Below are positions 15,245 through 34,929 of a stretch of 64,000 bases of DNA, one piece after another. A model generated the notes under the pieces. The model saw only the letters and a program-made list of their open reading frames with translations. It was not told the origin of the DNA and made no database searches. The translations under genes were made by a program, and so were the position numbers. The stretch lies in the NCBI GenBank assembly GCA_964057225.1, contig OZ059897.1:10664001-10728000 (forward strand), written 5' to 3'. The DNA comes from Auanema rhodensis. Its lineage: Eukaryota; Animalia; Nematoda. Each line of letters opens with the position of its first letter. Positions within the stretch are counted from its first letter, which is position 1.

Positions 15245-15625
15245 TGTCACATCTGCAAGCACATGGTAAACATGTGCGCGCTATTCAAATAGCGGGAGCC
15301 TGAACAAGCCCCGCCCACAACATGGGACACACATGGCACTCTTGCTTCTGGTCTAACCCAGATAGGTTGTCTTATAGTCATGTGAGTCTCATCTCTTTAT
15401 CATCTATATATATACTCTATTTAATACTTTATTATATCTTTTTATATTCTTTCTTAATGTAATTCTTATATTGTATTTTCTTGTTATCTGATAATGAATC
15501 CTTTTCTCTTTGAGTATTTGTCTTAATAAGGAAATCGGGGCGTTCGGGTCTGCCTACCTAAGGAACAAGGTAGAAGTACATATATCTTCCGACCATGAAA
15601 AGACGGGAAGAAACGATATGTAACG
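15245..15625 (+). repeat. 5' LTR of copy 1 (381 bp, TGTCACA...TGTAACG)
   Basis: Matches the reverse complement of 24842-25222 and 34549-34929; contains a GC box (CCCCGCCC), several CANNTG motifs and a TATATATA run near 15405-15414. Confidence 0.96.
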
Positions 15626-15638
15626 TGGAGGTTCCACC
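15626..15638 (+). promoter_or_regulatory. Primer-binding site, tRNA-Gln
   Basis: TGGAGGTTCCACC directly abuts the LTR and is complementary to the metazoan tRNA-Gln 3' end (...GGUGGAACCU-CCA, recalled sequence). Confidence 0.85.
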
Positions 15639-16777
15639 TTGCTTACTTTACTGTTAATTTATTGACAGCAAGTTTACGAGACTTTTGGACTTAATTACCC
15701 AACAGTGAGGAGTAACCGAGCCGTGCACCATGATTTCCCCAAAAAATATTTTGGCTACCACTTCTCCTCCGCTCAACGAAAACTGGGAGGTGTCTGAGAC
15801 GTTTGGGGAAACTATCAGACAATAGTTTTGACGAGCGTTACCTTTTTGTTATGCACGCGCGTGCTATTTTGATTCATTACTTTATGATGTGAATGTCCAG
15901 TGTGGCAACAGAGCTCACTTTTTAGCTGAGTTGTTTGGAAGCTGGAGGCTGTTGGGATAATTTTATTTACGATTTTTGATTTTGATTCACATCCAAGGGT
16001 TCATCAGGGCTCTACTCCTGTTAACTCTTTTCTTATTAGTTCAGAGATAATAAGAACATTTAAATTCCTACCCACCCAAGTCCACTCTACGTCTGCCAAC
16101 GTTTCCTTTTTCCTATATTATTGACAGATTACTGAATTTAAACTCCTATATCAATCTTAAATTACCATCTAAATCTTTGGAAATTAAATTAAAAATTATC
16201 TTAATTAAGATTTATTTTGAAATTCTTTCTACAAATCTTAATAAACTTTATAAAATTGAACTTAATATACGAGATGAGACATTTTTGTTTACTTTAAGCT
16301 TACTCACATTCAAATAGTTGGCCCACGCGTACCAGCTGTTCGACATGTGTAGTCAATAACAGCTGTTAAAATTCAAAAGTTTTCAAACAGGCTTAAGGCA
16401 CCATCTGTGATTCCTTATTTGTCTCTAAGCTGACATTAGTGATTATAATATTCAAATATCACGACAGACGGTCAATGGTTGTTTACCATAAGCGCTAACA
16501 TCTGGTGTCGTGACACATGGCTGGAGGCGGAGCTTGAAGCTTCAACGACCCTCCTTCATCAGACGCCATTGTCACAAACGTTTTTACTGGAGTCTAGTTG
16601 CTTCCAGTACGCGCTCTTATATTCATCTAACTGTATTCACCAGCCACCCTGTCGGACTCGGACATCAGCGAGGAAAACAAAGATCAGGAACAAGGATCAC
16701 CAGAGGTACGCCAAGTTTTTGAATTTAATTCTAAAAACTTAAATACTCCATCCACCTACCTCTCTCCTATTGAATTT

Positions 16778-19700
16778 TTGAGAGAAGAAGGTGATTCCTC
16801 TTCTTCTTCTCACTCTTCTTCTCTAACAATTAGAACGAGAAGTAAAAGCAGAAAGGCCATCACTGAGGAAACACCTCGGGCACCTACTATAGTACGAAAT
16901 AGATCACCAAGTCGGTGGGCCGCTGCTATAACTAAAGCTTTTGAAAGAAAAATGACTCCTACCTCTCCATCTCCTAATTCTAATGTTGCTCCACCCTCTA
17001 GAAATATGGCAACTATTTTAAATTGCCATCTCTGTCCCAGGTATGACGGCTCTCGTAGCTTTCGTTCTTTTGTTGAATCTTTAAATAGATTTTTTAATGT
17101 TATGAATCTAAGCTTACCTGAGAGACTATTAATTTTGCCTCTTCTTTTGGAATCAAATGAAACAGCTCTCTCCTTGTATAATAGTATTCCTAGTGGCATA
17201 AGAACTAATGGCCCATGGATTGTTTTGATGGATCAGCTCACTGAGCTTTTAGCGCCTAAAACAGATAAAAATTTCACCATAGCGCTTATTCATCGAGTAC
17301 AACAAGGAGATAAATCTGTTCTTGATTTTAGTATGGAATTAGAGAGAATGGCAAGCACCATAATGTCACCAATGGATCCCGAGCGGGAACCAATGTTGAA
17401 AACGGCATTTTTAAATGGTTTAAAAGAGGAGCTGGGTATTGCGGTTTTAACTAAAAACCCCGCCACTTATGAACAAGCTAAGAAATTAGCTAGGTTTGAA
17501 GAAGGCGTTCGAAATAGCTTCATGAAAAGAAATGAAGACACTAGCACCTTGAAGGAGCTCATAAATGCTTTACAGCATAAATTAAGCTTTAGTGAAGAAA
17601 GAGAAAGAAGTAGGAATAATAATAATAATAAAAATTATAAAAATAATAAAAAAAATAATAACTGGACTCAGCACAATAATGGCTCTAATGATTATGAGCG
17701 AGAGAGAGAGCGACCTTCTGCCGTACGTTATTATAATAATAACTCGCAGAACGGGAAAATGAATAGGCGTCCTAACCCGGGAAACCGCCCATTTGCCAAT
17801 GGCAGAAATGCCAATAGTTCGTCTTGGAACCCTAGGCCTAGTTCCCCAAGAAGACAAAGACCATCAGCCAATGGGAATGGTAACTCAAGGGTATACAGCG
17901 TAGCGACCCCATTCATGCCACCGGTCACGTTGTGCCTGACTTTATTGGCACTCTCATGCCTTCCCTTTGGGTCGGCAAAATATCAGATTTGCGCTCAATC
18001 TGAAGGGGGTATATTAGTAACACCTCCTGTGGTCACAGGCTGCCATAAGGCAGAAATTGAAAAGGCTCACAGTGTTGAGGTAGAAATATATCTACCAAAG
18101 GCTGAGATAGAGTCATGGGAAGCATGGAAATGCTATGTGAAAAAGTATAAAAGCTGTGTGAGAGATTTCATGTTTTTGAGAGATCGTAACACCACATTCT
18201 CTCATATTGAAACAGTAGATAAGAAAGATTGTGTTCGAGCACATAGAAATCGTATGTGGAATGATAAAATCATGAATGCCCAACAGCATTCAGTTTTTGA
18301 AACACCATTAAACGAGCATAATCCAACTCGCTCTTGGTCCACCGAAGAATGTGTAGAAATTGAACAATTTGTATTGAAGCGAGGGATAATAACTAGATTG
18401 AAAGAAGATCACATTGTATCAGACTTATTTATAAATACTGATAATTGTAAAGGAAATGAAGGGTTTTGTGCAACTGGTGAAAGTGCAGTTATCTGGCAAC
18501 CACCTATCCCATCAGTTGTCTGTCACTATCAAAAACTTGGCCCCTTCTCCGCCATGTTGGGTGATCATATTCTTCTAGTTCACTCTATTGAAAGCGCTTT
18601 TGTTCTCCAAAATCATTCCACATCCGCTCACGTTCAATCTTGTTTCGAATTCGCTGTTTTTGAATCATCCTCTGAGGCAATTATCCGATTCACAGCATAT
18701 CCCCGTGTTTATAATTTGCTTGATCTTTCCAATACTTTGCTTAATGCTGATAGACGCAGAAATAAACGTAATGCATTACCTCAAAAACATCGCTCTTTCA
18801 GTGATGATTATCTTTTTGTTAATGCGAAATCCCAACCATATGCGTTTCCATTTCTAAGACCTACTTTCATTTTTGGATCTGCATCTATCACTAAGTTTTA
18901 CGCAAAATATATGAGATATGCAGCTACATCATCTTATGAGAGTTTGCTCCAATTCGCGATAGATAATCCACTGTTCATTGACACAATTGTTAGTTTAGGA
19001 TTGACAAAAGATCACATAACTAACTGGGCAAAGTCTAATAATTTCAAAGATCCCAATCTTTTGATTTTACAATGTATGGGTATAGAGGAAATTAAACTGG
19101 CTACTAGACAGATGATTAACAGCATGAAATTGGATGATCTTATCACTCAAGTAGCTCGTCGTATAGAAGTTCCTCGGTTAAAAAGATCTTTGATGAAATC
19201 TACAACATCCATAGAAGATTTCTTTCGAGGAATGGCTCACGCAGTAGTATATCAAGCCACAATTCTTGATGGTACACAAACAGTTCCATCAATCGAACAG
19301 TTGGCAAGAGCCTTATATCCATCTATATTACCACGCAGTGGAAATATGAATCAATCTGAAATTATTGCAACTGCTCAAGGCATGTTATTCATGATCCAAC
19401 AACAATCGGGAAAAGAACAAATATCTCGTGACATGCAAGTCAGTCGACAACAAAAAGCTGATGCTACTGTTAGAAACAACCAAGAGCAAGATTTAGCAAT
19501 TATATCCAAGCTGCCTGACTATCACAACCTTTATACAAAGAATAGTACAGCATATTATGGATTTCCTCCACAGTCCATCGAATACCCACAGGAAAATCCT
19601 AAATTCAATAAAACAGAAGTTTTAGAATTCATAAGTTGGGTTAAAACGCAAATCACAACTGATAAAAATATGGTACAGCATACTACTGTAACCCCAATAA

Positions 19701-22700
19701 CTTCCACCAAAACTACAATTCGTAGTTTAACAACTCCTACCCCTAATGCGTACGAGAGAGGTCGAGAGTTGTATGTAGCAGAAGTATATGACAATGTTCT
19801 CCACAAATCAGAGCATAAAACTAAAACGATAATAGATAATAAGTTGAATTATGGGTTTGAGAAAGCGCGTCTCTCCATAATTGACGAATTTCATCAACAG
19901 TTTCATACCATCTGTAAATCTCAAATGGAAACTGTAAAAAGCTGGCAAGCTATATTACGTATACATCCTACAATAGGAGTAAGAGCTATGCTTCAGCGGG
20001 ATGATATCGTTGCCCGATTTGTTGGAAGAAATGTTTTAAAAATAACAACTTGTCAGGAAATAGAACCACATTTCATTTATCGTAATCATTCTTACAATGA
20101 TAAATGTTATGCAGAGACCCCTGTTTTAACACACAATAAACAATTATTCTTTGCTCCTATCGATAGCTACGATTTGAGCACTGAAGGACATGAGATCAAT
20201 TGTGAACACAAAGAGACAGAGATTTGGTATGAAAATGGAACATGGAGAGATTATAAAGGTGACACACATAAAGTAGATAGTATTCATTCAGAAAAACATG
20301 ATCATTATGCTGAATTGAGTAAACTTCGATTCACAGGGCGGAATTTGTTTGAAAATTCGACTGAAAAATCCTTAGCCCTATCTATTGGATTAACTTATGG
20401 TTATAGTTTATCTACTTCACCTCACCATGATCTTCTCCGCATAATTTCTCGTTCACGTGATTGGCCTCAAATTTCCTCTTTCATCTTGAAAGGAAGTAAA
20501 CTTATAAGAGATGCCAGGAAAATTGTTTTCTCCAATTGGGATCTGTTCATTGACTTTTGTATAGGTTCAATTGAACGAACACTCATTACCATCGGTTGTA
20601 TAACTCTGATATTATGTCTAATGATAGCATTATATTTCACTATAAAATGTTATCTCTCCCCTACTTCTATGTTAAAAATAAACCATATCATGTTGAGCCC
20701 AACAGCTCCACCACTTGAGGGAGATGAGATTCATGAAACAGTTAGTGATGAATTGATGCGGAGCTATTTTCCTACCATCATAACTTACATTCCTTTAGCC
20801 ATACCTTTTGTATGTCACACAACAACAAAGAAAAATGGACACTTGTTACCGTTTGTTCATATTGACATTGAAGGTAGAGGACTGTTAGCATTATGGGATT
20901 CTGGAGCTACTGTCTCATATATTCCGTTCTCCACATTGGCATATATTGGAAGACAATATTTTACAAAATATTCTAAATCTGCATCCACTGCAAATGGATC
21001 AGAGTTTCGCTTTGTGGGAAAATGCAAGTTAGATGTGGGTATAGCAGGTTACCAAGTGGAACACGAATTTTTAATATCTGAAGACAATGACTGTCCAGGA
21101 CAAATGTTACTTGGTACTGATTTTATGCGTACGTTGGAAGAAAGAGAGATATTTACTACATTAAAACTATGTAAAGGAAAGTTGATTGTTGGTAATATGG
21201 AAACACCCTTAGTAAAATCTGGTTGTTTTGCATATAAAACCACAACTAAAACAGTAAATATCATAAGTTTGTCCACAGTAACAGTTCCACCACATAGTAC
21301 CTCCCACATATCTTTGCAAACAGGACCAGAATTAGATTTTGATCAATATGCTCTTTTAAAATCTAGCATAGGTCCTATCTCAATTCCAGATGCCGCCATA
21401 GGACCTTTTCCTATTACTATGGTAGTATCAAACAATTCTTCAAAGCCAATTAAAATTAATAAAAATGACCACATTGGTTCAGGACTTATAGCATCTAAAG
21501 AAATTATGAACGATTATGTTCCACCTGAAGCTGATTGGGAAGATAAGTTACCAACTTTTCCTCAGCATCTTTTGGATGATTTGAACTTCAATTCTTGCAC
21601 TCTGTCCCATAAAATGAAGAAAAATCTGATCACAATCATTAAGGAAAACCAAACGGCATTTTTCAACCATGATCATAATATTGGTCTCTTTTGCGGACCA
21701 GTAGAACATGCCATTCCTATAAGATCCGATATGGATTTCCCAAAAAGTAGATCTTACAGAGTACCATTGGGTAAGCAAGAAGAAGTAGAACGGCAAGTGA
21801 AAGAAATGTTGTCGCAAGGTATAATCGAAAATTCGACGGCTACTTTCACTAGTCCAGTTGTTCTTGTGAAAAAGAAAGATAATTCTTTCCGGTTCGTAAC
21901 TGACTTTAGAGCATTGAATAGTGTTACTAAGAAACAAACATACAGCATCCCACACATTCCTGATATCATAGACTTAGCGGCTGGAGCTCAGTTCTTTTCG
22001 AATTTTGATCTCATTTCTGGTTTCTTCCAAATACCGTTGAAACGCTCAGATAGACACCTAACTGCTTTTACCACTCCATCAGGTACCTATCAGTATTGCC
22101 GAATGCCTATGGGATTGTGTGGAGCGCCACACACTTTTCAATCCGCAGTACGATACTTGCAATCTCTTGTTAGATGCAAACTGTTTGTATATCTAGATGA
22201 TTTGCTAATAATTTCGAACTCAGCTGATGAACATTTAAGAGATATACAAGAAGTGCTGAAAAAGGTCACTGAACTAGGGTTAAAAATTAAGTTATCTAAA
22301 TGTTGCTTTGCAGCCACTGAAGTAAAGTTTTTGGGTTTTATAATAGGTAGAAATGGTGTTAAACCAGATCCTGCTAAAATACAGGCTGTTTCCGAATTTC
22401 CAAATCCAAGCACAGTTACGGCTGTCAGATCCTTTCTAGGTATGACTAACTATTTTCGACGGTTTATTCAAAATTATGCCGGAATAGCTGAGCCATTGTA
22501 TAAGTTAACACATAAGGATACTCCTTTTGAGTGGAAATCGGAACATGCAGACGCATTTAAAACTTTAAAAACATTACTGTGTACTGCCCCTGTACTGAAA
22601 CCTCCTAAAGCAGACCAACCTTTTGTTATAGAAAGTGATGGCAGTATGATCGCTGTGGGAGCAGTTTTATTGCAATCAGCAGAGAAAAATTCTCCATTAC

Positions 22701-24208
22701 ACCCGATTGCGTTCGCTAGTAGAAAGTTGACTCCAGCGGAACGGAAATATCCTCCTATTGAAGTTGAAGCACTCGGTTTAGTCTTTGCTCTTCAACAATT
22801 CCGTACCTATGTATTAGGAGTACCTACCACAGTTATCACAGATCACCGACCATTAACCAGTTTAATGTCGCGTAAAGATCTCATAGGTAGATTAGCCAAG
22901 TATCAACTAATGATACAAGATTTCAACATAAAGATTGAATATCGTCCTGGCAAATTAAACAGTGTCTGTGATGCTCTCTCCAGGTATATAGGAAACGAAG
23001 CAAATGACAGTCGTCCTACTAAACCAAAGGACAAAGTAAAACCTGTTGATGCTTTTATTGCTCATATCACAACTATTTCTTCTATTGACCAACTAAATTG
23101 TGAAGAAATACGGAAAGTTCAAGCTGGAGTTCCCTGGATTCGCGAAGCACTTTCTCAAATTAATAATGATAACTGTCCGGCTAATATATCAGACCGGTAT
23201 GAAGAACGAGAAGGCATATTACATGCAAAACAAGCGAAAAATTATTTAAAACCATCTATTATTTTGCCTCGAAACGACAAAATAACTGATGTTGTCATCA
23301 AATTTTTTCACGAAGATTCCAAAATTGGTGCACACCTAGGTATTAATAAAACTACTGATGCGATTCGACGACGATTCTTTTGGACTAATATGGTTTTACA
23401 AATAACTGAATTTATTAATCGTTGTACAAAATGTGCAAGTAGGAAATCTAACCCACAACAATCGTATATTCAACCTATGGGAAGATTTGTTATACCCGAA
23501 AAGCCATTTGATCGTATTCATGTAGATATACTAGGTCCTTTACCTCGCACTAATGATGGACATCGATACATCTTGAGTATTCAAGACGCTTTTAGTAAAT
23601 GGGGAACAACTTGCCCATTAATAACACAAACGGCTACTGAAATCACAGAAGCGTTTGTAATTAGATTTGTTTTCATATATGGACCACCAATGAGTATGAT
23701 AACCGATAATGGTAGTAGCTTTTTGTCATCTGAATTTCAAGCTATGTGTAAACAATTTGGAATTAAACACACTACTACGCTACCATATCATAAAAATGCT
23801 AATGGACAAGTTGAGAGACTTCATAGAACTTTGGAAGAAGCTCTCTCTTCATTCGTGAATGAACAACAAACTAACTGGGATATACACCTACCCAAAGTTA
23901 TGTTTGCGATCAATACGTTACCAAACTCATCAACATCTATTAGTCCATATGTTGTATTATTTGGTCGGGATGCAAGACTTCCTATTGACCATCAATTGCC
24001 TGGAAATAATCTTCAAACTGAAGAACCAGCCAATCCTACAGAAGATTTTGTCAATAGATCGCTAATACAAAATGAAAGCACATCTAATATAGTAAAAGAT
24101 AGAATTGAAACATGCACAAAGAAGAATGAACAACGGTACAATACACGAAATAGAACACAAAATAAAGAATTTAGTATTTTAGTATTAGTATTTAGTATTT
24201 TTTTATGA
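16778..24208 (+). CDS. Gag-Env-Pol polyprotein, copy 1 (first ATG at 16952; integrase C-terminus truncated by the deletion)
   Basis: 2476-codon ORF: capsid motifs (YDG...F; QQGDKSV..F; AFLNGL), signal peptide aa 380-400, TM aa 1269-1289, protease DSG (D1374), RT YLDD (22190-22201), RNase H, integrase HHCC + D,D,E. Confidence 0.95.
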   Translation: MREEGDSSSSSHSSSLTIRTRSKSRKAITEETPRAPTIVRNRSPSRWAAAITKAFERKMTPTSPSPNSNVAPPSRNMATILNCHLCPRYDGSRSFRSFVESLNRFFNVMNLSLPERLLILPLLLESNETALSLYNSIPSGIRTNGPWIVLMDQLTELLAPKTDKNFTIALIHRVQQGDKSVLDFSMELERMASTIMSPMDPEREPMLKTAFLNGLKEELGIAVLTKNPATYEQAKKLARFEEGVRNSFMKRNEDTSTLKELINALQHKLSFSEERERSRNNNNNKNYKNNKKNNNWTQHNNGSNDYERERERPSAVRYYNNNSQNGKMNRRPNPGNRPFANGRNANSSSWNPRPSSPRRQRPSANGNGNSRVYSVATPFMPPVTLCLTLLALSCLPFGSAKYQICAQSEGGILVTPPVVTGCHKAEIEKAHSVEVEIYLPKAEIESWEAWKCYVKKYKSCVRDFMFLRDRNTTFSHIETVDKKDCVRAHRNRMWNDKIMNAQQHSVFETPLNEHNPTRSWSTEECVEIEQFVLKRGIITRLKEDHIVSDLFINTDNCKGNEGFCATGESAVIWQPPIPSVVCHYQKLGPFSAMLGDHILLVHSIESAFVLQNHSTSAHVQSCFEFAVFESSSEAIIRFTAYPRVYNLLDLSNTLLNADRRRNKRNALPQKHRSFSDDYLFVNAKSQPYAFPFLRPTFIFGSASITKFYAKYMRYAATSSYESLLQFAIDNPLFIDTIVSLGLTKDHITNWAKSNNFKDPNLLILQCMGIEEIKLATRQMINSMKLDDLITQVARRIEVPRLKRSLMKSTTSIEDFFRGMAHAVVYQATILDGTQTVPSIEQLARALYPSILPRSGNMNQSEIIATAQGMLFMIQQQSGKEQISRDMQVSRQQKADATVRNNQEQDLAIISKLPDYHNLYTKNSTAYYGFPPQSIEYPQENPKFNKTEVLEFISWVKTQITTDKNMVQHTTVTPITSTKTTIRSLTTPTPNAYERGRELYVAEVYDNVLHKSEHKTKTIIDNKLNYGFEKARLSIIDEFHQQFHTICKSQMETVKSWQAILRIHPTIGVRAMLQRDDIVARFVGRNVLKITTCQEIEPHFIYRNHSYNDKCYAETPVLTHNKQLFFAPIDSYDLSTEGHEINCEHKETEIWYENGTWRDYKGDTHKVDSIHSEKHDHYAELSKLRFTGRNLFENSTEKSLALSIGLTYGYSLSTSPHHDLLRIISRSRDWPQISSFILKGSKLIRDARKIVFSNWDLFIDFCIGSIERTLITIGCITLILCLMIALYFTIKCYLSPTSMLKINHIMLSPTAPPLEGDEIHETVSDELMRSYFPTIITYIPLAIPFVCHTTTKKNGHLLPFVHIDIEGRGLLALWDSGATVSYIPFSTLAYIGRQYFTKYSKSASTANGSEFRFVGKCKLDVGIAGYQVEHEFLISEDNDCPGQMLLGTDFMRTLEEREIFTTLKLCKGKLIVGNMETPLVKSGCFAYKTTTKTVNIISLSTVTVPPHSTSHISLQTGPELDFDQYALLKSSIGPISIPDAAIGPFPITMVVSNNSSKPIKINKNDHIGSGLIASKEIMNDYVPPEADWEDKLPTFPQHLLDDLNFNSCTLSHKMKKNLITIIKENQTAFFNHDHNIGLFCGPVEHAIPIRSDMDFPKSRSYRVPLGKQEEVERQVKEMLSQGIIENSTATFTSPVVLVKKKDNSFRFVTDFRALNSVTKKQTYSIPHIPDIIDLAAGAQFFSNFDLISGFFQIPLKRSDRHLTAFTTPSGTYQYCRMPMGLCGAPHTFQSAVRYLQSLVRCKLFVYLDDLLIISNSADEHLRDIQEVLKKVTELGLKIKLSKCCFAATEVKFLGFIIGRNGVKPDPAKIQAVSEFPNPSTVTAVRSFLGMTNYFRRFIQNYAGIAEPLYKLTHKDTPFEWKSEHADAFKTLKTLLCTAPVLKPPKADQPFVIESDGSMIAVGAVLLQSAEKNSPLHPIAFASRKLTPAERKYPPIEVEALGLVFALQQFRTYVLGVPTTVITDHRPLTSLMSRKDLIGRLAKYQLMIQDFNIKIEYRPGKLNSVCDALSRYIGNEANDSRPTKPKDKVKPVDAFIAHITTISSIDQLNCEEIRKVQAGVPWIREALSQINNDNCPANISDRYEEREGILHAKQAKNYLKPSIILPRNDKITDVVIKFFHEDSKIGAHLGINKTTDAIRRRFFWTNMVLQITEFINRCTKCASRKSNPQQSYIQPMGRFVIPEKPFDRIHVDILGPLPRTNDGHRYILSIQDAFSKWGTTCPLITQTATEITEAFVIRFVFIYGPPMSMITDNGSSFLSSEFQAMCKQFGIKHTTTLPYHKNANGQVERLHRTLEEALSSFVNEQQTNWDIHLPKVMFAINTLPNSSTSISPYVVLFGRDARLPIDHQLPGNNLQTEEPANPTEDFVNRSLIQNESTSNIVKDRIETCTKKNEQRYNTRNRTQNKEFSILVLVFSIFL
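17015..17530 (+). other. gag: Gag capsid domain
   Basis: PRYDGSRSFRSFVESLNRFF ... QQGDKSVLDFSMELERMA ... AFLNGL ... PATYEQAKKLARFEE is typical of Ty3/Gypsy capsid. Confidence 0.85.
17915..20644 (+). other. env: Envelope glycoprotein domain, class III fusogen-like (herpesvirus gB / chuvirus G type)
   Basis: Signal peptide MPPVTLCLTLLALSCLPFGSA; Cys-rich ectodomain with N-glycosylation sequons; furin sites RNKR and RLKR; gB-like C..Q......W......P.......R....AR..G..V....TC and CY...P motifs; TM LITIGCITLILCLMIALYFTI. Confidence 0.85.
20840..24169 (+). other. pol: Pol region: aspartic protease, reverse transcriptase, RNase H, integrase
   Basis: ALWDSGA/LLGTDF; SPVVLVKKKD, DFRALN, MPMGL, YLDD; SDGS..AVGAVL, TDH; H-H-C-C, HVDILGP, TDNG, NGQVER. 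Confidence 0.97.
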
Positions 24209-24209
24209 A
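24170..24209. other. 40-bp filler DNA at the deletion junction of copy 1
   Basis: Reiterated (T)TAGTATT motif replaces ~1012 bp that is present in copy 2 (24995-26006). Confidence 0.85.
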
Positions 24210-24362
24210 GTATTTTCTTGTTATCTGATAATGAATCCTTTTCTCTTTGAGTATTTGTCTTAATAAGGAAATCGGGGCTTTCGGGTCTGCCTACCTAAGG
24301 AACAAGGTAGAAGTACATATATCTTCCGACCATGAAAAGACGGGAAGAAACGATATGTAACG
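24210..24362 (+). repeat. Truncated 3' LTR of copy 1 (last 153 bp)
   Basis: Matches 15473-15625 with one substitution seen. Confidence 0.95.
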
Positions 24363-24481
24363 ACATCTTTCAATTTTTGGTCATTGATTAGAATTTTCAT
24401 GTTGTCACACAGAAATTGAAGAATCTTAGTTCATTTCAGTAACAATGAACACACTAACTTTGTTAAGTTGTTGTAATATCG

Positions 24482-24553
24482 GCCCAAGTAGTATAGTGGT
24501 TAGTACTCCACGTTGTGGCCGTGGCGACACAGGTTCGATTCCTGTCTTGGGCA
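24482..24553 (+). tRNA. tRNA-His(GTG), intact copy between the two retroelements
   Basis: Consensus cloverleaf with intact A and B boxes. Confidence 0.95.
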
Positions 24554-24813: not shown

Positions 24814-24841
24814 GCCCAAGTAGTATAGTGGTTAGTACTCC
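24814..24841 (+). pseudogene. 5' part of a tRNA-His split by LTR copy 2
   Basis: GCCCAAG...TACTCC followed by the LTR; the remainder is at 34930-34977. Confidence 0.95.
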
Positions 24842-25222
24842 CGTTACATATTGTTTCTTCCCGTCTTTTCATGGTCGGAAGATATATGTACTTCTACCTT
24901 GTTCCTTAGGTAGGCAGACCCGAACGCCCCGATTTCCTTATTAAGACAAATACTCAAAGAGAAAAGGATTCATTATCAGATAACAAGAAAATACAATATA
25001 AGAATTACATTAAGAAAGAATATAAAGAGATATAATAAAGTATTAAATAGAGTATATATATAGATGATATAGAGATGAGACTCACATGACTATAAGACAA
25101 CCTATCTGGGTTAGGCCAGAAGCAAGAGTGCCATGTGTGTCCCATGTTGTGGGCGGGGCTTGTTCAGGCTCCCGCTATTTGAATAGCGCGCACATGTTTA
25201 CCATGTGCTTGCAGATGTGACA
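24842..25222 (-). repeat. 3' LTR of copy 2
   Basis: Direct repeat of 34549-34929. Confidence 0.97.
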
Positions 25223-25234
25223 TCCCCCCACTTT
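25223..25234 (-). promoter_or_regulatory. Polypurine tract
   Basis: AAAGTGGGGGGA on the minus strand, immediately before the TGTCACA start of the 3' LTR. Confidence 0.9.
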
Positions 25235-25736
25235 AAAAAGTTGAACGTCCTCGTTCAAAAACAAAATAAATTAATTCAATTTTTAAGATAGTTGGATGTT
25301 GGAAAAAAAATCATGGTGTAGTGGATAAAAAAATGTATACAATACGATTTGAAAGTTTAGCTATTGTCTCTTCAAGTTTGTTGAATTCGAAATGTAGTAT
25401 CGAGTAGATTCTATTCCATTCACTTGCAAACGAGAGCTTTGCTTCTAAACCATTCGACTGTGATATAGTCGTTCATTTTCTCGAGTTCTACAGGTACGGT
25501 GTTACCCTGAGAATAGGTCGAGCCCGTTCTGTACAAAAAAATGAAAACTCGTTTAACCCGTATGACTAATGTCCATAAGGTGAATACAAGTAATGATTAT
25601 GCATAAAAAAATAGCAAGATTCACAAGAGAATGTTGAAAAATCTACTCAATGAGAGTTGGAGTAATAAAACAAAACCTTGTAAAACAATAGCAGACTTTT
25701 CAGAGAAAATCAATCAACAACAAAGAAGTGTTACAA

Positions 25737-28700
25737 TCAGAAATGGCACAAAATAAAAAAAAATAAAAATTTCAACAATTTGATTTTGTTAAAAAAAAAA
25801 CTACCTTCAAGAAATTGTGATAACCGGAATAGATGTGGTCCGTTGGTAAGGTTTGACGAAGTCCTTGTGTACTCTTCTGCTTTTTCCTTTATCTGTTTGA
25901 ACCACGACGAAAGATCTTTGAAGACTAAATAAGGCCCTTCGAATGAAGGTGTTAGTTTGTTTCGAGTAGAATTCACTTTTATCATAACTAAGTCATCAAC
26001 CTGAATTTCTTTATTTTGTGTTCTATTTCGTGTATTGTACCGTTGTTCATTCTTCTTTGTGCATGTTTCAATTCTATCTTTTACTATATTAGATGTGCTT
26101 TCATTTTGTATTAGCGATCTATTGACAAAATCTTCTGTAGGATTGGCTGGTTCTTCAGTTTGAAGATTATTTCCAGGCAATTGATGGTCAATAGGAAGTC
26201 TTGCATCCCGACCAAATAATACAACATATGGACTAATAGATGTTGATGAGTTTGGTAACGTATTGATCGCAAACATAACTTTGGGTAGGTGTATATCCCA
26301 GTTAGTTTGTTGTTCATTCACGAATGAAGAGAGAGCTTCTTCCAAAGTTCTATGAAGTCTCTCAACTTGTCCATTAGCATTTTTATGATATGGTAGCGTA
26401 GTAGTGTGTTTAATTCCAAATTGTTTACACATAGCTTGAAATTCAGATGACAAAAAGCTACTACCATTATCGGTTATCATACTCATTGGTGGTCCATATA
26501 TGAAAACAAATCTAATTACAAACGCTTCTGTGATTTCAGTAGCCGTTTGTGTTATTAATGGGCAAGTTGTTCCCCATTTACTAAAAGCGTCTTGAATACT
26601 CAAGATGTATCGATGTCCATCATTAGTGCGAGGTAAAGGACCTAGTATATCTACATGAATACGATCAAATGGCTTTTCGGGTATAACAAATCTTCCCATA
26701 GGTTGAATATACGATTGTTGTGGGTTAGATTTCCTACTTGCACATTTTGTACAACGATTAATAAATTCAGTTATTTGTAAAACCATATTAGTCCAAAAGA
26801 ATCGTCGTCGAATCGCATCAGTAGTTTTATTAATACCTAGGTGTGCACCAATTTTGGAATCTTCGTGAAAAAATTTGATGACAACATCAGTTATTTTGTC
26901 GTTTCGAGGCAAAATAATAGATGGTTTTAAATAATTTTTCGCTTGTTTTGCATGTAATATGCCTTCTCGTTCTTCATACCGGTCTGATATATTAGCCGGA
27001 CAGTTATCATTATTAATTTGAGAAAGTGCTTCGCGAATCCAGGGAACTCCAGCTTGAACTTTCCGTATTTCTTCACAATTTAGTTGGTCAATAGAAGAAA
27101 TAGTTGTGATATGAGCAATAAAAGCATCAACAGGTTTTACTTTGTCCTTTGGTTTAGTAGGACGACTGTCATTTGCTTCGTTTCCTATATACCTGGAGAG
27201 AGCATCACAGACACTGTTTAATTTGCCAGGACGATATTCAATCTTTATGTTGAAATCTTGTATCATTAGTTGATACTTGGCTAATCTACCTATGAGATCT
27301 TTACGCGACATTAAACTGGTTAATGGTCGGTGATCTGTGATAACTGTGGTAGGTACTCCTAATACATAGGTACGGAATTGTTGAAGAGCAAAGACTAAAC
27401 CGAGTGCTTCAACTTCAATAGGAGGATATTTCCGTTCCGCTGGAGTCAACTTTCTACTAGCGAACGCAATCGGGTGTAATGGAGAATTTTTCTCTGCTGA
27501 TTGCAATAAAACTGCTCCCACAGCGATCATACTGCCATCACTTTCTATAACAAAAGGTTGGTCTGCTTTAGGAGGTTTCAGTACAGGGGCAGTACACAGT
27601 AATGTTTTTAAAGTTTTAAATGCGTCTGCATGTTCCGATTTCCACTCAAAAGGAGTATCCTTATGTGTTAACTTATACAATGGCTCAGCTATTCCGGCAT
27701 AATTTTGAATAAACCGTCGAAAATAGTTAGTCATACCTAGAAAGGATCTGACAGCCGTAACTGTGCTTGGATTTGGAAATTCGGAAACAGCCTGTATTTT
27801 AGCAGGATCTGGTTTAACACCATTTCTACCTATTATAAAACCCAAAAACTTTACTTCAGTGGCTGCAAAGCAACATTTAGATAACTTAATTTTTAACCCT
27901 AGTTCAGTGACCTTTTTCAGCACTTCTTGTATATCTCTTAAATGTTCATCAGCTGAGTTCGAAATTATTAGCAAATCATCTAGATATACAAACAGTTTGC
28001 ATCTAACAAGAGATTGCAAGTATCGTACTGCGGATTGAAAAGTGTGTGGCGCTCCACACAATCCCATAGGCATTCGGCAATACTGATAGGTACCTGATGG
28101 AGTGGTAAAAGCAGTTAGGTGTCTATCTGAGCGTTTCAACGGTATTTGGAAGAAACCAGAAATGAGATCAAAATTCGAAAAGAACTGAGCTCCAGCCGCT
28201 AAGTCTATGATATCAGGAATGTGTGGGATGCTGTATGTTTGTTTCTTAGTAACACTATTCAATGCTCTAAAGTCAGTTACGAACCGGAAAGAATTATCTT
28301 TCTTTTTCACAAGAACAACTGGACTAGTGAAAGTAGCCGTCGAATTTTCGATTATACCTTGCGACAACATTTCTTTCACTTGCCGTTCTACTTCTTCTTG
28401 CTTACCCAATGGTACTCTGTAAGATCTACTTTTTGGGAAATCCATATCGGATCTTATAGGAATGGCATGTTCTACTGGTCCGCAAAAGAGACCAATATTA
28501 TGATCATGGTTGAAAAATGCCGTTTGGTTTTCCTTAATGATTGTGATCAGATTTTTCTTCATTTTATGGGACAGAGTGCAAGAATTGAAGTTCAAATCAT
28601 CCAAAAGATGCTGAGGAAAAGTTGGTAACTTATCTTCCCAATCAGCTTCAGGTGGAACATAATCGTTCATAATTTCTTTAGATGCTATAAGTCCTGAACC

Positions 28701-31700
28701 AATGTGGTCATTTTTATTAATTTTAATTGGCTTTGAAGAATTGTTTGATACTACCATAGTAATAGGAAAAGGTCCTATGGCGGCATCTGGAATTGAGATA
28801 GGACCTATGCTAGATTTTAAAAGAGCATATTGATCAAAATCTAATTCTGGTCCTGTTTGCAAAGATATGTGGGAGGTACTATGTGGTGGAACTGTTACTG
28901 TGGACAAACTTATGATATTTACTGTTTTAGTTGTGGTTTTATATGCAAAACAACCAGATTTTACTAAGGGTGTTTCCATATTACCAACAATCAACTTTCC
29001 TTTACATAGTTTTAATGTAGTAAATATCTCTCTTTCTTCCAACGTACGCATAAAATCAGTACCAAGTAACATTTGTCCTGGACAGTCATTGTCTTCAGAT
29101 ATTAAAAATTCGTGTTCCACTTGGTAACCTGCTATACCCACATCTAACTTGCATTTTCCCACAAAGCGAAACTCTGATCCATTTGCAGTGGATGCAGATT
29201 TAGAATATTTTGTAAAATATTGTCTTCCAATATATGCCAATGTGGAGAACGGAATATATGAGACAGTAGCTCCAGAATCCCATAATGCTAACAGTCCTCT
29301 ACCTTCAATGTCAATATGAACAAACGGTAACAAGTGTCCATTTTTCTTTGTTGTTGTGTGACATACAAAAGGTATGGCTAAAGGAATGTAAGTTATGATG
29401 GTAGGAAAATAGCTCCGCATCAATTCATCACTAACTGTTTCATGAATCTCATCTCCCTCAAGTGGTGGAGCTGTTGGGCTCAACATGATATGGTTTATTT
29501 TTAACATAGAAGTAGGGGAGAGATAACATTTTATAGTGAAATATAATGCTATCATTAGACATAATATCAGAGTTATACAACCGATGGTAATGAGTGTTCG
29601 TTCAATTGAACCTATACAAAAGTCAATGAACAGATCCCAATTGGAGAAAACAATTTTCCTGGCATCTCTTATAAGTTTACTTCCTTTCAAGATGAAAGAG
29701 GAAATTTGAGGCCAATCACGTGAACGAGAAATTACGCGGAGAAGATCATGGTGAGGTGAAGTAGATAAACTATAACCATAAGTTAATCCAATAGATAGGG
29801 CTAAGGATTTTTCAGTCGAATTTTCAAACAAATTCCGCCCTGTGAATCGAAGTTTACTCAATTCAGCATAATGATCATGTTTTTCTGAATGAATACTATC
29901 TACTTTATGTGTGTCACCTTTATAATCTCTCCATGTTCCATTTTCATACCAAATCTCTGTCTCTTTGTGTTCACAATTGATCTCATGTCCTTCAGTGCTC
30001 AAATCGTAGCTATCGATAGGAGCAAAGAATAATTGTTTATTGTGTGTTAAAACAGGGGTCTCTGCATAACATTTATCATTGTAAGAATGATTACGATAAA
30101 TGAAATGTGGTTCTATTTCCTGACAAGTTGTTATTTTTAAAACATTTCTTCCAACAAATCGGGCAACGATATCATCCCGCTGAAGCATAGCTCTTACTCC
30201 TATTGTAGGATGTATACGTAATATAGCTTGCCAGCTTTTTACAGTTTCCATTTGAGATTTACAGATGGTATGAAACTGTTGATGAAATTCGTCAATTATG
30301 GAGAGACGCGCTTTCTCAAACCCATAATTCAACTTATTATCTATTATCGTTTTAGTTTTATGCTCTGATTTGTGGAGAACATTGTCATATACTTCTGCTA
30401 CATACAACTCTCGACCTCTCTCGTACGCATTAGGGGTAGGAGTTGTTAAACTACGAATTGTAGTTTTGGTGGCAGTTATTGGGGTTACAGTAGTATGCTG
30501 TACCATATTTTTATCAGTTGTGATTTGAGTTTTAACCCAACTTATGAATTCTAAAACTTCTGTTTTATTGAATTTAGGATTTTCTTGTGGGTATTCGATG
30601 GACTGTGGAGGAAATCCATAATATGCTGTACTATTCTTTGTATAAAGGTTGTGATAGTCAGGCAGCTTGGATATAATTGCTAAAACTTGCTCTTGGTTGT
30701 TTCTAACAGTAGCATCAGCTTTTTGTTGTCGACTGACTTGCATGTCACGAGATATTTGTTCTTTTCCCGATTGTTGTTGGATCATGAATAACATGCCTTG
30801 AGCAGTTGCAATAATTTCAGATTGATTCATATTTCCACTGCGTGCTAATATAGATGGATATAAGGCTCTGGCCAACTGTTCGATTGATGGAACTGTTTGT
30901 GTACCATCAAGAATTGTGGCTTGATATACTACTGCGTGAGCCATTCCTCGAAAGAAGTCTTCTATGGATGTTGTAGATTTCATCAACGATCTTTTTAACC
31001 GAGGAACTTCTATACGACGAGCTACTTGAGTGATAAGATCATCCAATTTCATGCTATTAATCACCTGTCTAGTAGCCAGTTTAATTTCCTCTATACCCAT
31101 ACATTGTAAAATCAAAAGATTGGGATCTTTGAAATTATTAGACTTTGCCCAGTTAGTTATGTGATCTTTTGTCAATCCTAAACTAACAATTGTGTCAATG
31201 AACAGTGGATTATCTATCGCGAATTGGAGCAAACTCTCATAAGATGATGTAGCTGCATATCTCATATATTTTGCGTAAAACTTAGTGATAGATGCAGATC
31301 CAAAAATGAAAGTAGGTCTTAGAAATGGAAACGCATATGGTTGGGATTTCGCATTAACAAAAAGATAATCATCACTGAAAGAGCGATGTTTTTGAGGTAA
31401 TGCATTACGTTTATTTCTGCGTCTATCAGCATTAAGCAAAGTATTGGAAAGATCAAGCAAATTATAAACACGGGGATATGCTGTGAATCGGATAATTGCC
31501 TCAAAGGATGATTCAAAAACAGCGAATTCGAAACAAGATTGAACGTGAGCGGATGTGGAATGATTTTGGAGAACAAAAGCGCTTTCAATAGAGTGAACTA
31601 GAAGAATATGATCACCCAACATGGCGGAGAAGGGGCCAAGTTTTTGATAGTGACAGACAACTGATGGGATAGGTGGTTGCCAGATAACTGCACTTTCACC

Positions 31701-33398
31701 AGTTGCACAAAACCCTTCATTTCCTTTACAATTATCAGTATTTATAAATAAGTCTGATACAATGTGATCTTCTTTCAATCTAGTTATTATCCCTCGCTTC
31801 AATACAAATTGTTCAATTTCTACACATTCTTCGGTGGACCAAGAGCGAGTTGGATTATGCTCGTTTAATGGTGTTTCAAAAACTGAATGCTGTTGGGCAT
31901 TCATGATTTTATCATTCCACATACGATTTCTATGTGCTCGAACACAATCTTTCTTATCTACTGTTTCAATATGAGAGAATGTGGTGTTACGATCTCTCAA
32001 AAACATGAAATCTCTCACACAGCTTTTATACTTTTTCACATAGCATTTCCATGCTTCCCATGACTCTATCTCAGCCTTTGGTAGATATATTTCTACCTCA
32101 ACACTGTGAGCCTTTTCAATTTCTGCCTTATGGCAGCCTGTGACCACAGGAGGTGTTACTAATATACCCCCTTCAGATTGAGCGCAAATCTGATATTTTG
32201 CCGACCCAAAGGGAAGGCATGAGAGTGCCAATAAAGTCAGGCACAACGTGACCGGTGGCATGAATGGGGTCGCTACGCTGTATACCCTTGAGTTACCATT
32301 CCCATTGGCTGATGGTCTTTGTCTTCTTGGGGAACTAGGCCTAGGGTTCCAAGACGAGCTATTGGCATTTCTGCCATTCGCAAATGGGCGGTTTCCCGGG
32401 TTAGGACGCCTATTCATATTCCCGTTCTGCGAGTTATTATTATTATAACGTACGGCAGAAGGTCGCTCTCTCTCTCGCTCATAATCATTAGAGCCATTAT
32501 TGTGCTGAGTCCAGTTATTATTTTTTTTATTATTTTTATAATTTTTATTATTATTATTATTCCTACTTCTTTCTCTTTCTTCACTAAAGCTTAATTTATG
32601 CTGTAGAGCATTTATGAGCTCCTTCAAGGTGCTAGTGTCTTCATTTCTTTTCATGAAGCTATTTCGAACGCCTTCTTCAAACCTAGCTAATTTCTTAGCT
32701 TGTTCATAAGTGGCGGGGTTTTTAGTTAAAACCGCAATACCCAGCTCCTCTTTTAAACCATTTAAAAATGCCGTTTTCAACATTGGTTCCCGCTCGGGAT
32801 CCATTGGTGACATTATGGTGCTTGCCATTCTCTCTAATTCCATACTAAAATCAAGAACAGATTTATCTCCTTGTTGTACTCGATGAATAAGCGCTATGGT
32901 GAAATTTTTATCTGTTTTAGGCGCTAAAAGCTCAGTGAGCTGATCCATCAAAACAATCCATGGGCCATTAGTTCTTATGCCACTAGGAATACTATTATAC
33001 AAGGAGAGAGCTGTTTCATTTGATTCCAAAAGAAGAGGCAAAATTAATAGTCTCTCAGGTAAGCTTAGATTCATAACATTAAAAAATCTATTTAAAGATT
33101 CAACAAAAGAACGAAAGCTACGAGAGCCGTCATACCTGGGACAGAGATGGCAATTTAAAATAGTTGCCATATTTCTAGAGGGTGGAGCAACATTAGAATT
33201 AGGAGATGGAGAGGTAGGAGTCATTTTTCTTTCAAAAGCTTTAGTTATAGCAGCGGCCCACCGACTTGGTGATCTATTTCGTACTGTAGTAGGTGCCCGA
33301 GGTGTTTCCTCAGTGATGGCCTTTCTGCTTTTACTTCTCATTCTAATTGTTAGAGAAGAAGAGTGAGAAGAAGAAGAGGAATCACCTTCTTCTCTCAA
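25737..33398 (-). CDS. Gag-Env-Pol polyprotein, copy 2 (probable frameshift in the integrase GPY/F tail)
   Basis: About 10 aa differences from copy 1, all in Gag/Env; extends to LTPSFEGPYLV; env domain at 29532-32261. Confidence 0.95.
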   Translation of the reverse strand: MREEGDSSSSSHSSSLTIRMRSKSRKAITEETPRAPTTVRNRSPSRWAAAITKAFERKMTPTSPSPNSNVAPPSRNMATILNCHLCPRYDGSRSFRSFVESLNRFFNVMNLSLPERLLILPLLLESNETALSLYNSIPSGIRTNGPWIVLMDQLTELLAPKTDKNFTIALIHRVQQGDKSVLDFSMELERMASTIMSPMDPEREPMLKTAFLNGLKEELGIAVLTKNPATYEQAKKLARFEEGVRNSFMKRNEDTSTLKELINALQHKLSFSEERERSRNNNNNKNYKNNKKNNNWTQHNNGSNDYERERERPSAVRYNNNNSQNGNMNRRPNPGNRPFANGRNANSSSWNPRPSSPRRQRPSANGNGNSRVYSVATPFMPPVTLCLTLLALSCLPFGSAKYQICAQSEGGILVTPPVVTGCHKAEIEKAHSVEVEIYLPKAEIESWEAWKCYVKKYKSCVRDFMFLRDRNTTFSHIETVDKKDCVRAHRNRMWNDKIMNAQQHSVFETPLNEHNPTRSWSTEECVEIEQFVLKRGIITRLKEDHIVSDLFINTDNCKGNEGFCATGESAVIWQPPIPSVVCHYQKLGPFSAMLGDHILLVHSIESAFVLQNHSTSAHVQSCFEFAVFESSFEAIIRFTAYPRVYNLLDLSNTLLNADRRRNKRNALPQKHRSFSDDYLFVNAKSQPYAFPFLRPTFIFGSASITKFYAKYMRYAATSSYESLLQFAIDNPLFIDTIVSLGLTKDHITNWAKSNNFKDPNLLILQCMGIEEIKLATRQVINSMKLDDLITQVARRIEVPRLKRSLMKSTTSIEDFFRGMAHAVVYQATILDGTQTVPSIEQLARALYPSILARSGNMNQSEIIATAQGMLFMIQQQSGKEQISRDMQVSRQQKADATVRNNQEQVLAIISKLPDYHNLYTKNSTAYYGFPPQSIEYPQENPKFNKTEVLEFISWVKTQITTDKNMVQHTTVTPITATKTTIRSLTTPTPNAYERGRELYVAEVYDNVLHKSEHKTKTIIDNKLNYGFEKARLSIIDEFHQQFHTICKSQMETVKSWQAILRIHPTIGVRAMLQRDDIVARFVGRNVLKITTCQEIEPHFIYRNHSYNDKCYAETPVLTHNKQLFFAPIDSYDLSTEGHEINCEHKETEIWYENGTWRDYKGDTHKVDSIHSEKHDHYAELSKLRFTGRNLFENSTEKSLALSIGLTYGYSLSTSPHHDLLRVISRSRDWPQISSFILKGSKLIRDARKIVFSNWDLFIDFCIGSIERTLITIGCITLILCLMIALYFTIKCYLSPTSMLKINHIMLSPTAPPLEGDEIHETVSDELMRSYFPTIITYIPLAIPFVCHTTTKKNGHLLPFVHIDIEGRGLLALWDSGATVSYIPFSTLAYIGRQYFTKYSKSASTANGSEFRFVGKCKLDVGIAGYQVEHEFLISEDNDCPGQMLLGTDFMRTLEEREIFTTLKLCKGKLIVGNMETPLVKSGCFAYKTTTKTVNIISLSTVTVPPHSTSHISLQTGPELDFDQYALLKSSIGPISIPDAAIGPFPITMVVSNNSSKPIKINKNDHIGSGLIASKEIMNDYVPPEADWEDKLPTFPQHLLDDLNFNSCTLSHKMKKNLITIIKENQTAFFNHDHNIGLFCGPVEHAIPIRSDMDFPKSRSYRVPLGKQEEVERQVKEMLSQGIIENSTATFTSPVVLVKKKDNSFRFVTDFRALNSVTKKQTYSIPHIPDIIDLAAGAQFFSNFDLISGFFQIPLKRSDRHLTAFTTPSGTYQYCRMPMGLCGAPHTFQSAVRYLQSLVRCKLFVYLDDLLIISNSADEHLRDIQEVLKKVTELGLKIKLSKCCFAATEVKFLGFIIGRNGVKPDPAKIQAVSEFPNPSTVTAVRSFLGMTNYFRRFIQNYAGIAEPLYKLTHKDTPFEWKSEHADAFKTLKTLLCTAPVLKPPKADQPFVIESDGSMIAVGAVLLQSAEKNSPLHPIAFASRKLTPAERKYPPIEVEALGLVFALQQFRTYVLGVPTTVITDHRPLTSLMSRKDLIGRLAKYQLMIQDFNIKIEYRPGKLNSVCDALSRYIGNEANDSRPTKPKDKVKPVDAFIAHITTISSIDQLNCEEIRKVQAGVPWIREALSQINNDNCPANISDRYEEREGILHAKQAKNYLKPSIILPRNDKITDVVIKFFHEDSKIGAHLGINKTTDAIRRRFFWTNMVLQITEFINRCTKCASRKSNPQQSYIQPMGRFVIPEKPFDRIHVDILGPLPRTNDGHRYILSIQDAFSKWGTTCPLITQTATEITEAFVIRFVFIYGPPMSMITDNGSSFLSSEFQAMCKQFGIKHTTTLPYHKNANGQVERLHRTLEEALSSFVNEQQTNWDIHLPKVMFAINTLPNSSTSISPYVVLFGRDARLPIDHQLPGNNLQTEEPANPTEDFVNRSLIQNESTSNIVKDRIETCTKKNEQRYNTRNRTQNKEIQVDDLVMIKVNSTRNKLTPSFEGPYLVFKDLSSWFKQIKEKAEEYTRTSSNLTNGPHLFRLSQFLEGSFFFNKIKLLKFLFFFILCHF

Positions 33399-34535: not shown

Positions 34536-34548
34536 GGCGGAACCTCCA
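34536..34548 (-). promoter_or_regulatory. Primer-binding site, tRNA-Gln (one A>G change, compatible with a G-U pair)
   Basis: TGGAGGTTCCGCC on the minus strand abutting the 5' LTR. Confidence 0.8.
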
Positions 34549-34929
34549 CGTTACATATTGTTTCTTTCCGTCTTTTCATGGTCGGAAGATATATGTACTT
34601 CTACCTTGTTCCTTAGGTAGGCAGACCCGAACGCCCCGATTTCCTTATTAAGACAAATACTCAAAGAGAAAAGGATTCATTATCAGATAACAAGAAAATA
34701 CAATAAAAGAATTACATTAAGAAAGAATATAAAGAGATATAATAAAGTATTAAATAGAGTATATATATAGATGATATAGAGATGAGACTCACATGACTAT
34801 AAGACAACCAATCTGGGTTAGGCCAGAAGCAAGAGTGCCATGTGTGTCCCATGTTGTGGGCGGGGCTTGTTCAGGCTCCCGCTATTTGAATAGCGCGCAC
34901 ATGTTTACCATGTGCTTGCAGATGTGACA
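34549..34929 (-). repeat. 5' LTR of copy 2
   Basis: 381 bp, TGTCACA...TGTAACG on the minus strand. Confidence 0.97.

What the first reader, a model, noticed from the sequence alone, without database searches (positions are those of the whole stretch)
16778..24208. Gypsy retroelement with the envelope gene between gag and pol in one uninterrupted polyprotein (gag-env-pol)
Seen: in both copies a single ORF runs Gag (aa ~80-375), internal signal peptide (380-400), ~870-aa Cys-rich ectodomain, TM (1269-1289), short tail, protease (D1374), RT, RH, IN, with no stop or frameshift between them. The ~0.5-kb 3' UTR holds no env. Established: retroviruses, errantiviruses and env-bearing nematode BEL/Pao elements place env downstream of pol. 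Inference: the topology resembles a flavi/alphavirus polyprotein, with Gag cytosolic, signal peptidase releasing a lumenal Env, and a stop-transfer TM returning Pol to the cytosol tethered to the Env tail. This would give 1:1:1 stoichiometry and a way to package Pol via Env. It is a candidate new architecture of enveloped, recently active nematode retrovirus-like element. I cannot confirm it is undescribed without a database search.
Basis: partly seen in the sequence, partly recalled or inferred. Interest (0 to 1): 0.92.

Follow-up and report, generated by a model that had tools for sequence, protein, structure and literature searches.

The report
Nematode retroelement, envelope inside polyprotein
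Two young, slightly damaged copies of a virus-like jumping gene, likely of a nematode, carry a predicted membrane-fusion (envelope) protein in the middle of one long protein, between capsid and enzymes; the layout is real but has already been described in nematodes and flatworms.

Summary
Both copies have one stop-free frame of over 2,500 codons in the order Gag, signal-like stretch, ectodomain, transmembrane helix, protease, RT, RNase H, integrase. The ectodomain is a class III fusogen of the herpesvirus-gB/mononegavirus type. It is no nested insert: 21 of 120 listed relatives, all named ones nematode, carry it ahead of pol.

The layout is not new. In-frame env between gag and pol was reported for planarian Burro (PMC6431247), and GAG-ENV-POL order for 36 nematode elements (PMC13524379). 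Two of those share copy 1's tRNA-Gln primer site. This scan met the layout before on other DNA.

Additions here:
- A clade-specific motif recurs at the predicted cytosolic junctions and likely marks cuts by the element's own protease.
- Contigs from 2 of 4 probable RNA runs (one study) skip gag and env at a GT-AG joint; no DNA control was obtained.
- Both copies are damaged in the integrase tail and sit in a tandem tRNA-His array.

Verdict: new member of a known kind; interest low to modest.

The parts
15245..24362 (+). Copy 1 of the element, with a 3' deletion; 4-bp target duplication ACAT; inserted 120 nt upstream of a tRNA-His gene
15245..15625 (+). 5' LTR of copy 1, 381 bp, ends TG...CG
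15626..15638 (+). Primer binding site; its 12-nt reverse complement equals the tRNA-Gln site listed for Clat_errantivirus_4 and Ctro_errantivirus_1
16631..24208 (+). Single gag-env-pol frame of copy 1, 2525 codons; first AUG at 16952; the stop arises at the deletion junction
17006..17530 (+). Gag capsid region (approximate), followed by an Asn/Arg-rich stretch; no zinc-knuckle Pfam hit
17909..17977 (+). Predicted internal signal peptide ending G-S-A, preceded by the VYSV motif
   Evidence: cleavage inferred from the -3/-1 rule (recalled)
17978..20566 (+). Class III (gB/mononegavirus-type) fusogen ectodomain; two furin-like sites (aa 710, 849) within a lower-confidence helical middle part
20576..20644 (+). 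Predicted transmembrane helix
20645..20830 (+). Predicted cytosolic tail with the INHI motif and a conserved proline-rich hydrophobic stretch before the protease
20843..21139 (+). Aspartic protease (DSG at aa 1423)
21728..22924 (+). Reverse transcriptase (YLDD) and RNase H
23282..24172 (+). Integrase: zinc finger and catalytic core present, tail cut by the deletion
24210..24362 (+). Last 153 bp of copy 1's 3' LTR
24842..34929 (-). Copy 2, both LTRs present; 4-bp target duplication CTCC; inserted inside a tRNA-His gene; 99.4% identical to copy 1 over 8929 bp
34549..34929 (-). 5' LTR of copy 2; primer site follows, with one mismatch to copy 1's
25737..33545 (-). Single gag-env-pol frame of copy 2, 2602 codons; leaves the relatives' integrase-tail frame near 25,920
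29378..33470 (-). 4093-nt GT...AG segment (gag plus env) skipped in contigs of 2 of 4 probable RNA runs
26053..29343 (-). 3291-nt segment (most of pol) skipped at an 8-letter direct repeat in contigs of the same two runs; not a splice-type joint
25223..25236 (-). Polypurine tract
24842..25222 (-). 3' LTR of copy 2, 378 of 381 identical to its 5' LTR

Best explanation
This is a young Ty3/gypsy LTR element with env between gag and pol in one reading frame, likely a member of the already described nematode GAG-ENV-POL group, and its single protein is predicted to be threaded through the ER membrane and likely cut into capsid, envelope and enzymes by signal peptidase, furin and its own protease. 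Shown: one frame, domain order, two hydrophobic stretches, a gB-like predicted fold, LTRs, primer site, target duplications. Inferred steps: (1) Gag is made in the cytosol. (2) The internal signal peptide sends the ectodomain into the ER lumen and is cut after G-S-A. (3) The TM stops transfer, so protease, RT and integrase return to the cytosol. (4) The element's protease cuts at V/I-N-x-V/I-like sites just before the signal peptide, just after the TM and around itself, which frees Gag and Pol. (5) Furin cuts the ectodomain, and Gag, Pol and RNA, concentrated on the same membrane as Env, bud as enveloped particles that would pass between cells and into the germline. The GT-AG-joined RNA most likely comes from a shortened, non-autonomous relative. 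Odds: about 0.9 for the family assignment, 0.75 for the topology, 0.6 for protease cuts at the motif, 0.4 for cell-to-cell spread today.
For: One frame and domain order. Foldseek on the alignment-based model (mean pLDDT 63): all 38 listed PDB chains are herpesvirus gB, best E 1.4e-11; the best viral hits are rhabdo-like, nyamivirus and gB glycoproteins, best E 6.5e-17. 21 of 120 listed relatives match the ectodomain upstream of pol. 19 of 19 chosen for a Pfam scan have the fusogen match ahead of pol, and 8 of these 19 also have Gag in front. A signal-like peak occurs in 12 of 14 relatives that reach that region and a TM peak in 20 of 21. RT/RNase H tree: the element lies in a clade of 22 rows with support 1.0, of whose 21 other rows 18 have an env match. 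Primer site identical to 2 of 36 published nematode elements, and 8 of 36 use tRNA-Gln. The motif occurs 30 times in 1774 junction residues against 14 in 9808 ectodomain residues of 14 relatives.
Against: No direct alignment to a named published element, and Sacco 2022 was not readable. TM-scores of the fold matches are low (0.12-0.27 by query length) and 276 of 867 residues have pLDDT under 50. The signal stretch is only moderately hydrophobic (1.81) and no dedicated predictor was run. The motif was chosen from the same alignment on which it was counted, and the relatives are kin, so its P value is not valid. The window's own pre-signal site (VYSV) fails the strict motif, while strict matches also lie in Gag (aa 220) and the ectodomain (aa 650). 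Non-env gypsy proteins lack the motif before the protease (0-1 of 37-42 per bin), so it is not a general gypsy protease site. Many named relatives are gene models that may be spliced, so they do not prove a continuous frame. Both copies are damaged in the integrase tail.
Confidence: 0.8

Rival explanations
1. Expression is split by splicing: the full-length RNA makes Gag and Env, and a GT-AG-spliced message that skips gag and env supplies Pol alone, as foamy viruses do (recalled). The single frame would then not mean 1:1:1 output.
For: The joint 33471/29377 has GT...AG ends on the element's strand in 2 of 4 runs. Its contig depths are 20.7 and 14.3, against at most 6.8 and 7.9 for the listed unjoined pieces of the same runs. 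The acceptor lies just upstream of the protease. The chance of such ends at a random deletion is about 0.8%. One upstream frame of 71 open codons joins the Pol frame.
Against: That upstream frame has no AUG in either copy, and the first in-frame Met after the acceptor lies beyond the catalytic Asp. Entry from the Gag frame closes after 29 codons. The same contigs also lose most of pol at an 8-letter repeat. The runs are one study, 'RNA' is a guess, contig depth is a poor measure of expression, and there is no DNA control.
Confidence: 0.1
2. Env is a tolerated passenger: the element multiplies inside cells as Gag-Pol particles, and the envelope part no longer drives spread between cells.
For: No particle or infectivity data exist here; PMC13524379 says that transmission through env is unknown outside Drosophila. 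The two copies differ at 12 replacement and 9 silent codons of 2513, too few to show selection.
Against: The ectodomain, signal-like stretch and TM are kept in frame across Caenorhabditis, Meloidogyne and Panagrolaimus relatives at 20-34% identity, with invariant cysteines. A 2.6-kb membrane-crossing insert between Gag and Pol would likely be lost if useless (inference).
Confidence: 0.08
3. The ectodomain is a recent nested insertion, or an assembly artefact, in an ordinary gag-pol element.
For: Two ectodomain-only word searches found no relative.
Against: It is present in both copies, which have separate target duplications. The same position is held in 21 relatives. 10 of 15 listed sequencing runs hold half or more of the element's sampled words.
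Confidence: 0.01

Closest known systems
Nematode GAG-ENV-POL 'ancient errantiviruses' with HSV/gB-type ENV (Chary and Hayashi, eLife 2026, PMC13524379; passages, sections 6 and 9 part 1, section 5 part 1, section 22, and rows of supplementary files 1 and 4 seen)
   Same: Ty3/gypsy pol, gag-env-pol order, gB-type env, tRNA-Gln primer site (copy 1 identical to Clat_4 and Ctro_1), no chromodomain hit. My relatives come from six species also in their table (C. nigoni, C. remanei, C. brenneri, C. tropicalis, M. enterolobii, P. davidi).
   Different: Their main text has no occurrence of 'polyprotein', 'splic', 'single ORF' or 'fused', so topology, processing and splicing are not treated under those words. 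This element is 55-68% identical in RT/RNase H to its 12 nearest database relatives, so it is a new family.
Nematode endogenous retroviruses (NERVs) of Sacco et al. 2022, J Gen Virol, doi 10.1099/jgv.0.001739 (only the title and the citing sentences were seen; the abstract is recalled)
   Same: Nematode metavirus with env and pol flipped. Recalled: a continuous gag-env-pro-pol ORF and an env like Nyamiviridae glycoproteins; Nyavirus is rank 3.
   Different: Recalled: extra ORFs (a small protein or an Upf1-like helicase). No second sense ORF over 97 aa lies in copy 2. Not compared by sequence.
Planarian Burro/GYPSM1 giant gypsy elements (Arkhipova and Yushenova 2019, PMC6431247; passages seen)
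   Same: Env in frame between gag and pol in one polyprotein, with hits to mononegavirus fusion glycoproteins; called there the first such case.
   Different: About 5000 aa with BIR, BCL2, ankyrin and other domains, over 30 kb, with zinc knuckles. Here about 2500 aa, 10 kb, none of these.
Flavivirus and alphavirus structural polyproteins (recalled)
   Same: Works alike in the predicted topology: cytosolic capsid, internal signal, lumenal glycoprotein, return to the cytosol, and viral protease cuts on the cytosolic side.
   Different: Unrelated: RNA viruses with class II fusogens and no RT or integrase.

Membership tests
Ty3/gypsy (Metaviridae) LTR element | PR-RT-RNase H-IN order with gypsy-type RT | tested here: met
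   Pfam order; all 120 listed relatives are gypsy-type Pol proteins
Ty3/gypsy (Metaviridae) LTR element | LTRs, primer site, polypurine tract, short target duplication | tested here: met
   381-bp LTRs, PBS, PPT, 4-bp duplications; the LTR ends are TG...CG rather than TG...CA
Nematode GAG-ENV-POL errantivirus / NERV | env between gag and pol | tested here: met
Nematode GAG-ENV-POL errantivirus / NERV | HSV/gB-type (class III) env bounded by signal peptide and TM | tested here: met
   Pfam, fold searches and hydropathy; low TM-scores; no SignalP or DeepTMHMM
Nematode GAG-ENV-POL errantivirus / NERV | Pol groups with nematode env-before-pol elements | tested here: met
   Clade of 22 rows, support 1.0, in a FastTree of 119 rows; P0022 and P0025 left out as too short. 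Members are database proteins, not the papers' named elements
Nematode GAG-ENV-POL errantivirus / NERV | Placement against the named published elements; cysteine-bridge class (C1a, C1d, C2a, C2c) | not tested
   Their sequences were not held as session proteins; only table rows were read
Nematode GAG-ENV-POL errantivirus / NERV | Chromadorean nematode host | tested here: inconclusive
   All named env-bearing relatives are nematodes; no genome is held for the window
Nematode GAG-ENV-POL errantivirus / NERV | Enveloped, infectious particles | not testable with these tools
   Needs bench work
BEL/Pao env elements (Cer7, Atlas; recalled) | BEL/Pao-type Pol with env downstream of pol | tested here: not met
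   No Pao peptidase, DUF5641 or phlebovirus G2 match; env lies upstream
Insect errantivirus (Drosophila gypsy type) | Separate F-type env downstream of pol | tested here: not met

The most novel reading that the evidence does not exclude
Nematode gag-env-pol elements escape the fixed 1:1:1 output of their single frame in two ways not found in the papers I could read. Their own protease cuts a repeated V/I-N-x-V/I signal on both cytosolic sides of the envelope module, as a flavivirus does. A GT-AG splice placed just before the protease yields a foamy-virus-like Pol-only message, and is also the source of short non-autonomous copies.
Probability: 0.1. Interest if true: 0.62.

Novelty: new member of a known kind. 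Interest (0 to 1): 0.27.

Why it matters
The layout is known, but how such a polyprotein is threaded, cut and packaged was not treated in the passages read; PMC13524379 says that env-based transmission remains unknown outside Drosophila. This family offers testable cut sites and a candidate splice. That bears on how LTR elements become enveloped viruses and on class III fusogens that may work without the helper proteins herpesviruses need. As a discovery of architecture it adds nothing new.

Tried and rejected
Two ectodomain word searches found nothing; a third, spanning env to RT, found the family, so the blanks reflect low sensitivity. A single-sequence fold was useless (pLDDT 32). The viral contig scan gave no relative. 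The metagenome scan with P0019 gave 3 loci matching only pol; L003 had no long ORF, so relatives' DNA could not be checked for the splice sites. The HMMER search of representatives was still queued when I stopped, so no held-out test of the motif was made. No RNA holder is on record among the sequencing runs; four runs are only guessed to be RNA.

Literature searches without hits: errantivirus + glycoprotein B + 'between gag and pol'; NERV terms. Sacco 2022 is not held and its supplements were unseen. A search on tRNA arrays and retrotransposons gave nothing specific in its listing. No search was run specifically on splicing or protease sites in these elements, beyond word look-ups in PMC13524379.

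Rejected: the motif as a general gypsy protease site; tRNA-gene targeting at a fixed distance, since the two copies sit at -120 and inside the gene; a transposase in the 37899-41270 element, where 10 frames gave no Pfam match above cut-off. The sequence and place look-ups of earlier findings were empty.

Full report
Observation. The window is a 332-bp tandem array carrying 124 predicted tRNA genes, 123 His and one read as Gln. Three insertions interrupt it. Two are copies of one LTR element: copy 1 at 15245-24362 (+) and copy 2 at 24842-34929 (-), 99.4% identical over 8929 bp. Each has its own 4-bp target duplication, so they are separate insertions. The LTRs are 381 bp and end TG...CG. Copy 2's LTRs match at 378 of 381 positions, and a primer site and a polypurine tract are in place. 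Each copy holds one frame of over 2500 codons. Pfam gives Gag (weak), a viral fusion glycoprotein match, protease, RT, RNase H and integrase, in that order. The only two strongly hydrophobic stretches of copy 1's frame bound the region between Gag and protease.

The coordinate 16778 is a TTG, and the first AUG differs between copies. Copy 1's stop is made by a deletion that removes the integrase tail and part of the 3' LTR. Copy 2 departs from the relatives' frame after the GPY motif near 25,920. The catalytic motifs of protease, RT, RNase H and integrase are present. The copies differ at 21 of 2513 shared codons, 9 silent and 12 replacing.

The envelope. A model folded with a 19-row alignment has mean pLDDT 63: confident at both ends of the ectodomain, weaker in a helical middle part. 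Foldseek returned herpesvirus gB for all 38 listed PDB chains (best E 1.4e-11). In the viral library it returned rhabdo-like, nyamivirus, chuvirus and gB glycoproteins (best E 6.5e-17). TM-scores are low, so this is a domain-level match. With the Pfam hit this makes it a class III fusogen. Two furin-like sites lie at aa 710 and 849.

Relatives. A search with the env-to-RT region gave 433 proteins, of which 120 were listed. Of these, 21 match the ectodomain upstream of pol. All named ones are nematodes: Caenorhabditis, Auanema, Diploscapter, Meloidogyne, Panagrolaimus and Oesophagostomum. I chose 19 for a Pfam scan because of their listed domains or coverage. All 19 have the fusogen ahead of pol, and 8 also have Gag in front. 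Named proteins are gene models and may be spliced. In an RT/RNase H tree of 119 rows (118 of the 120 plus the window; P0022 and P0025 too short), the element is sister to an Auanema protein (0.96). It lies in a clade of 22 rows (support 1.0) in which 18 of the 21 other rows have an env match; the remaining 3 are shorter records. P0073, P0032 and P0033 share the order but fall outside, as expected if the order occurs in several clades. The insert is thus a family trait.

Literature. PMC13524379 states that nematode, bryozoan and flatworm errantiviruses carry only gB-type env, arranged GAG-ENV-POL, and credits Sacco et al. 2022 for nematodes. Its table lists 36 nematode elements; 8 use tRNA-Gln and 2 have exactly copy 1's 12-nt site. 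PMC6431247 reports env in frame between gag and pol in planarian Burro polyproteins. Of Sacco 2022 I saw the title only; that it describes one continuous gag-env-pro-pol ORF is my recollection. Earlier notes of this scan reached the same verdict on other genomes and led me to the Burro paper.

Mechanism. The topology is inferred from hydropathy and conservation: a signal-like peak in 12 of 14 relatives that reach it, and a TM peak in 20 of 21. The alignment shows a short V/I-N-x-V/I motif just before the signal peptide, again after the TM and around the protease. In 14 relatives it occurs 13 times in 630 residues before the signal and 17 times in 1144 tail residues. Against that, it occurs 14 times in 9808 ectodomain residues, 16 in 13611 Pol residues and 8 in 3156 Gag residues. 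Its position at domain borders on the predicted cytosolic side suggests cuts by the element's protease, which would free Gag from the signal anchor and Pol from Env. The caveats are strong. The motif was picked from the same data and the proteins are kin. The window's own pre-signal site is VYSV. Ordinary gypsy proteins lack the motif before their protease. If the cuts are real, the Env tether on Pol lasts only until the protease is active.

A joined RNA form. Fifteen runs hold the element, none on record as RNA. In 2 of the 4 guessed-RNA runs (one study), a contig joins 33471 to 29377, skipping gag and env. The ends read GT...AG on the element's strand, and contig depth is above that of the unjoined pieces. 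The chance of such ends is about 0.8%. The same contigs also skip most of pol at an 8-letter repeat: a joint in X13 and a matching loose end in X12. That second joint looks like a template switch in reverse transcription (inference). The splice can enter the Pol frame only from a 71-codon frame without AUG, and entry from the Gag frame closes after 29 codons. The likeliest source is therefore a short non-autonomous relative that descends from, or yields, a spliced RNA. A Pol-only message remains possible. No DNA control was obtained.

Verdict. This is a new family of a known kind, with two modest leads on processing and splicing. Interest 0.27.

Noticed in passing
window 1-15243, 24363-24841, 34930-37898, 41271-64000: The '332-bp satellite' is a tandem array of tRNA-His(GTG) genes: 124 ARAGORN calls over about 41 kb, running off both ends of the window. 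A strict pattern found 91 genes in 18 variants, 51 identical. Spacing patterns recur (for example 338-bp units at 1348 and 7659), suggesting higher-order repeats. One unit at 61518 reads as tRNA-Gln(TTG).
   Followed up: partly
window 37899-41270: A 3.4-kb DNA transposon-like insertion with 134-bp terminal inverted repeats and a 9-bp target duplication at the 5' end of a tRNA-His gene; Mutator-like by these features (recalled). Only short, probably intron-split frames; 10 of 31 frames scanned gave no Pfam match above cut-off.
   Followed up: partly
window 24363-24841: The two element copies inserted within about 480 bp of each other, in opposite orientation, and the DNA transposon lies 3 kb further on. 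All three insertions cluster in one part of the array; chance or a local hot spot.
   Followed up: no
window 15620-15625 and 24842-24847: The LTRs end in CG instead of the usual CA in all four LTR ends seen.
   Followed up: no
proteins P0032, P0033: Unnamed metagenome polyproteins with a full-length mononegavirus-type fusogen ahead of the protease, outside the nematode clade. P0032 has an Ig domain after integrase; P0033 has more than one protease-like domain.
   Followed up: no
protein P0012: A C. nigoni gene model joins a gB-type env-pol element to a downstream BEL/Pao piece with a phlebovirus G2 env; probably a nested insertion or a chimeric model.
   Followed up: no
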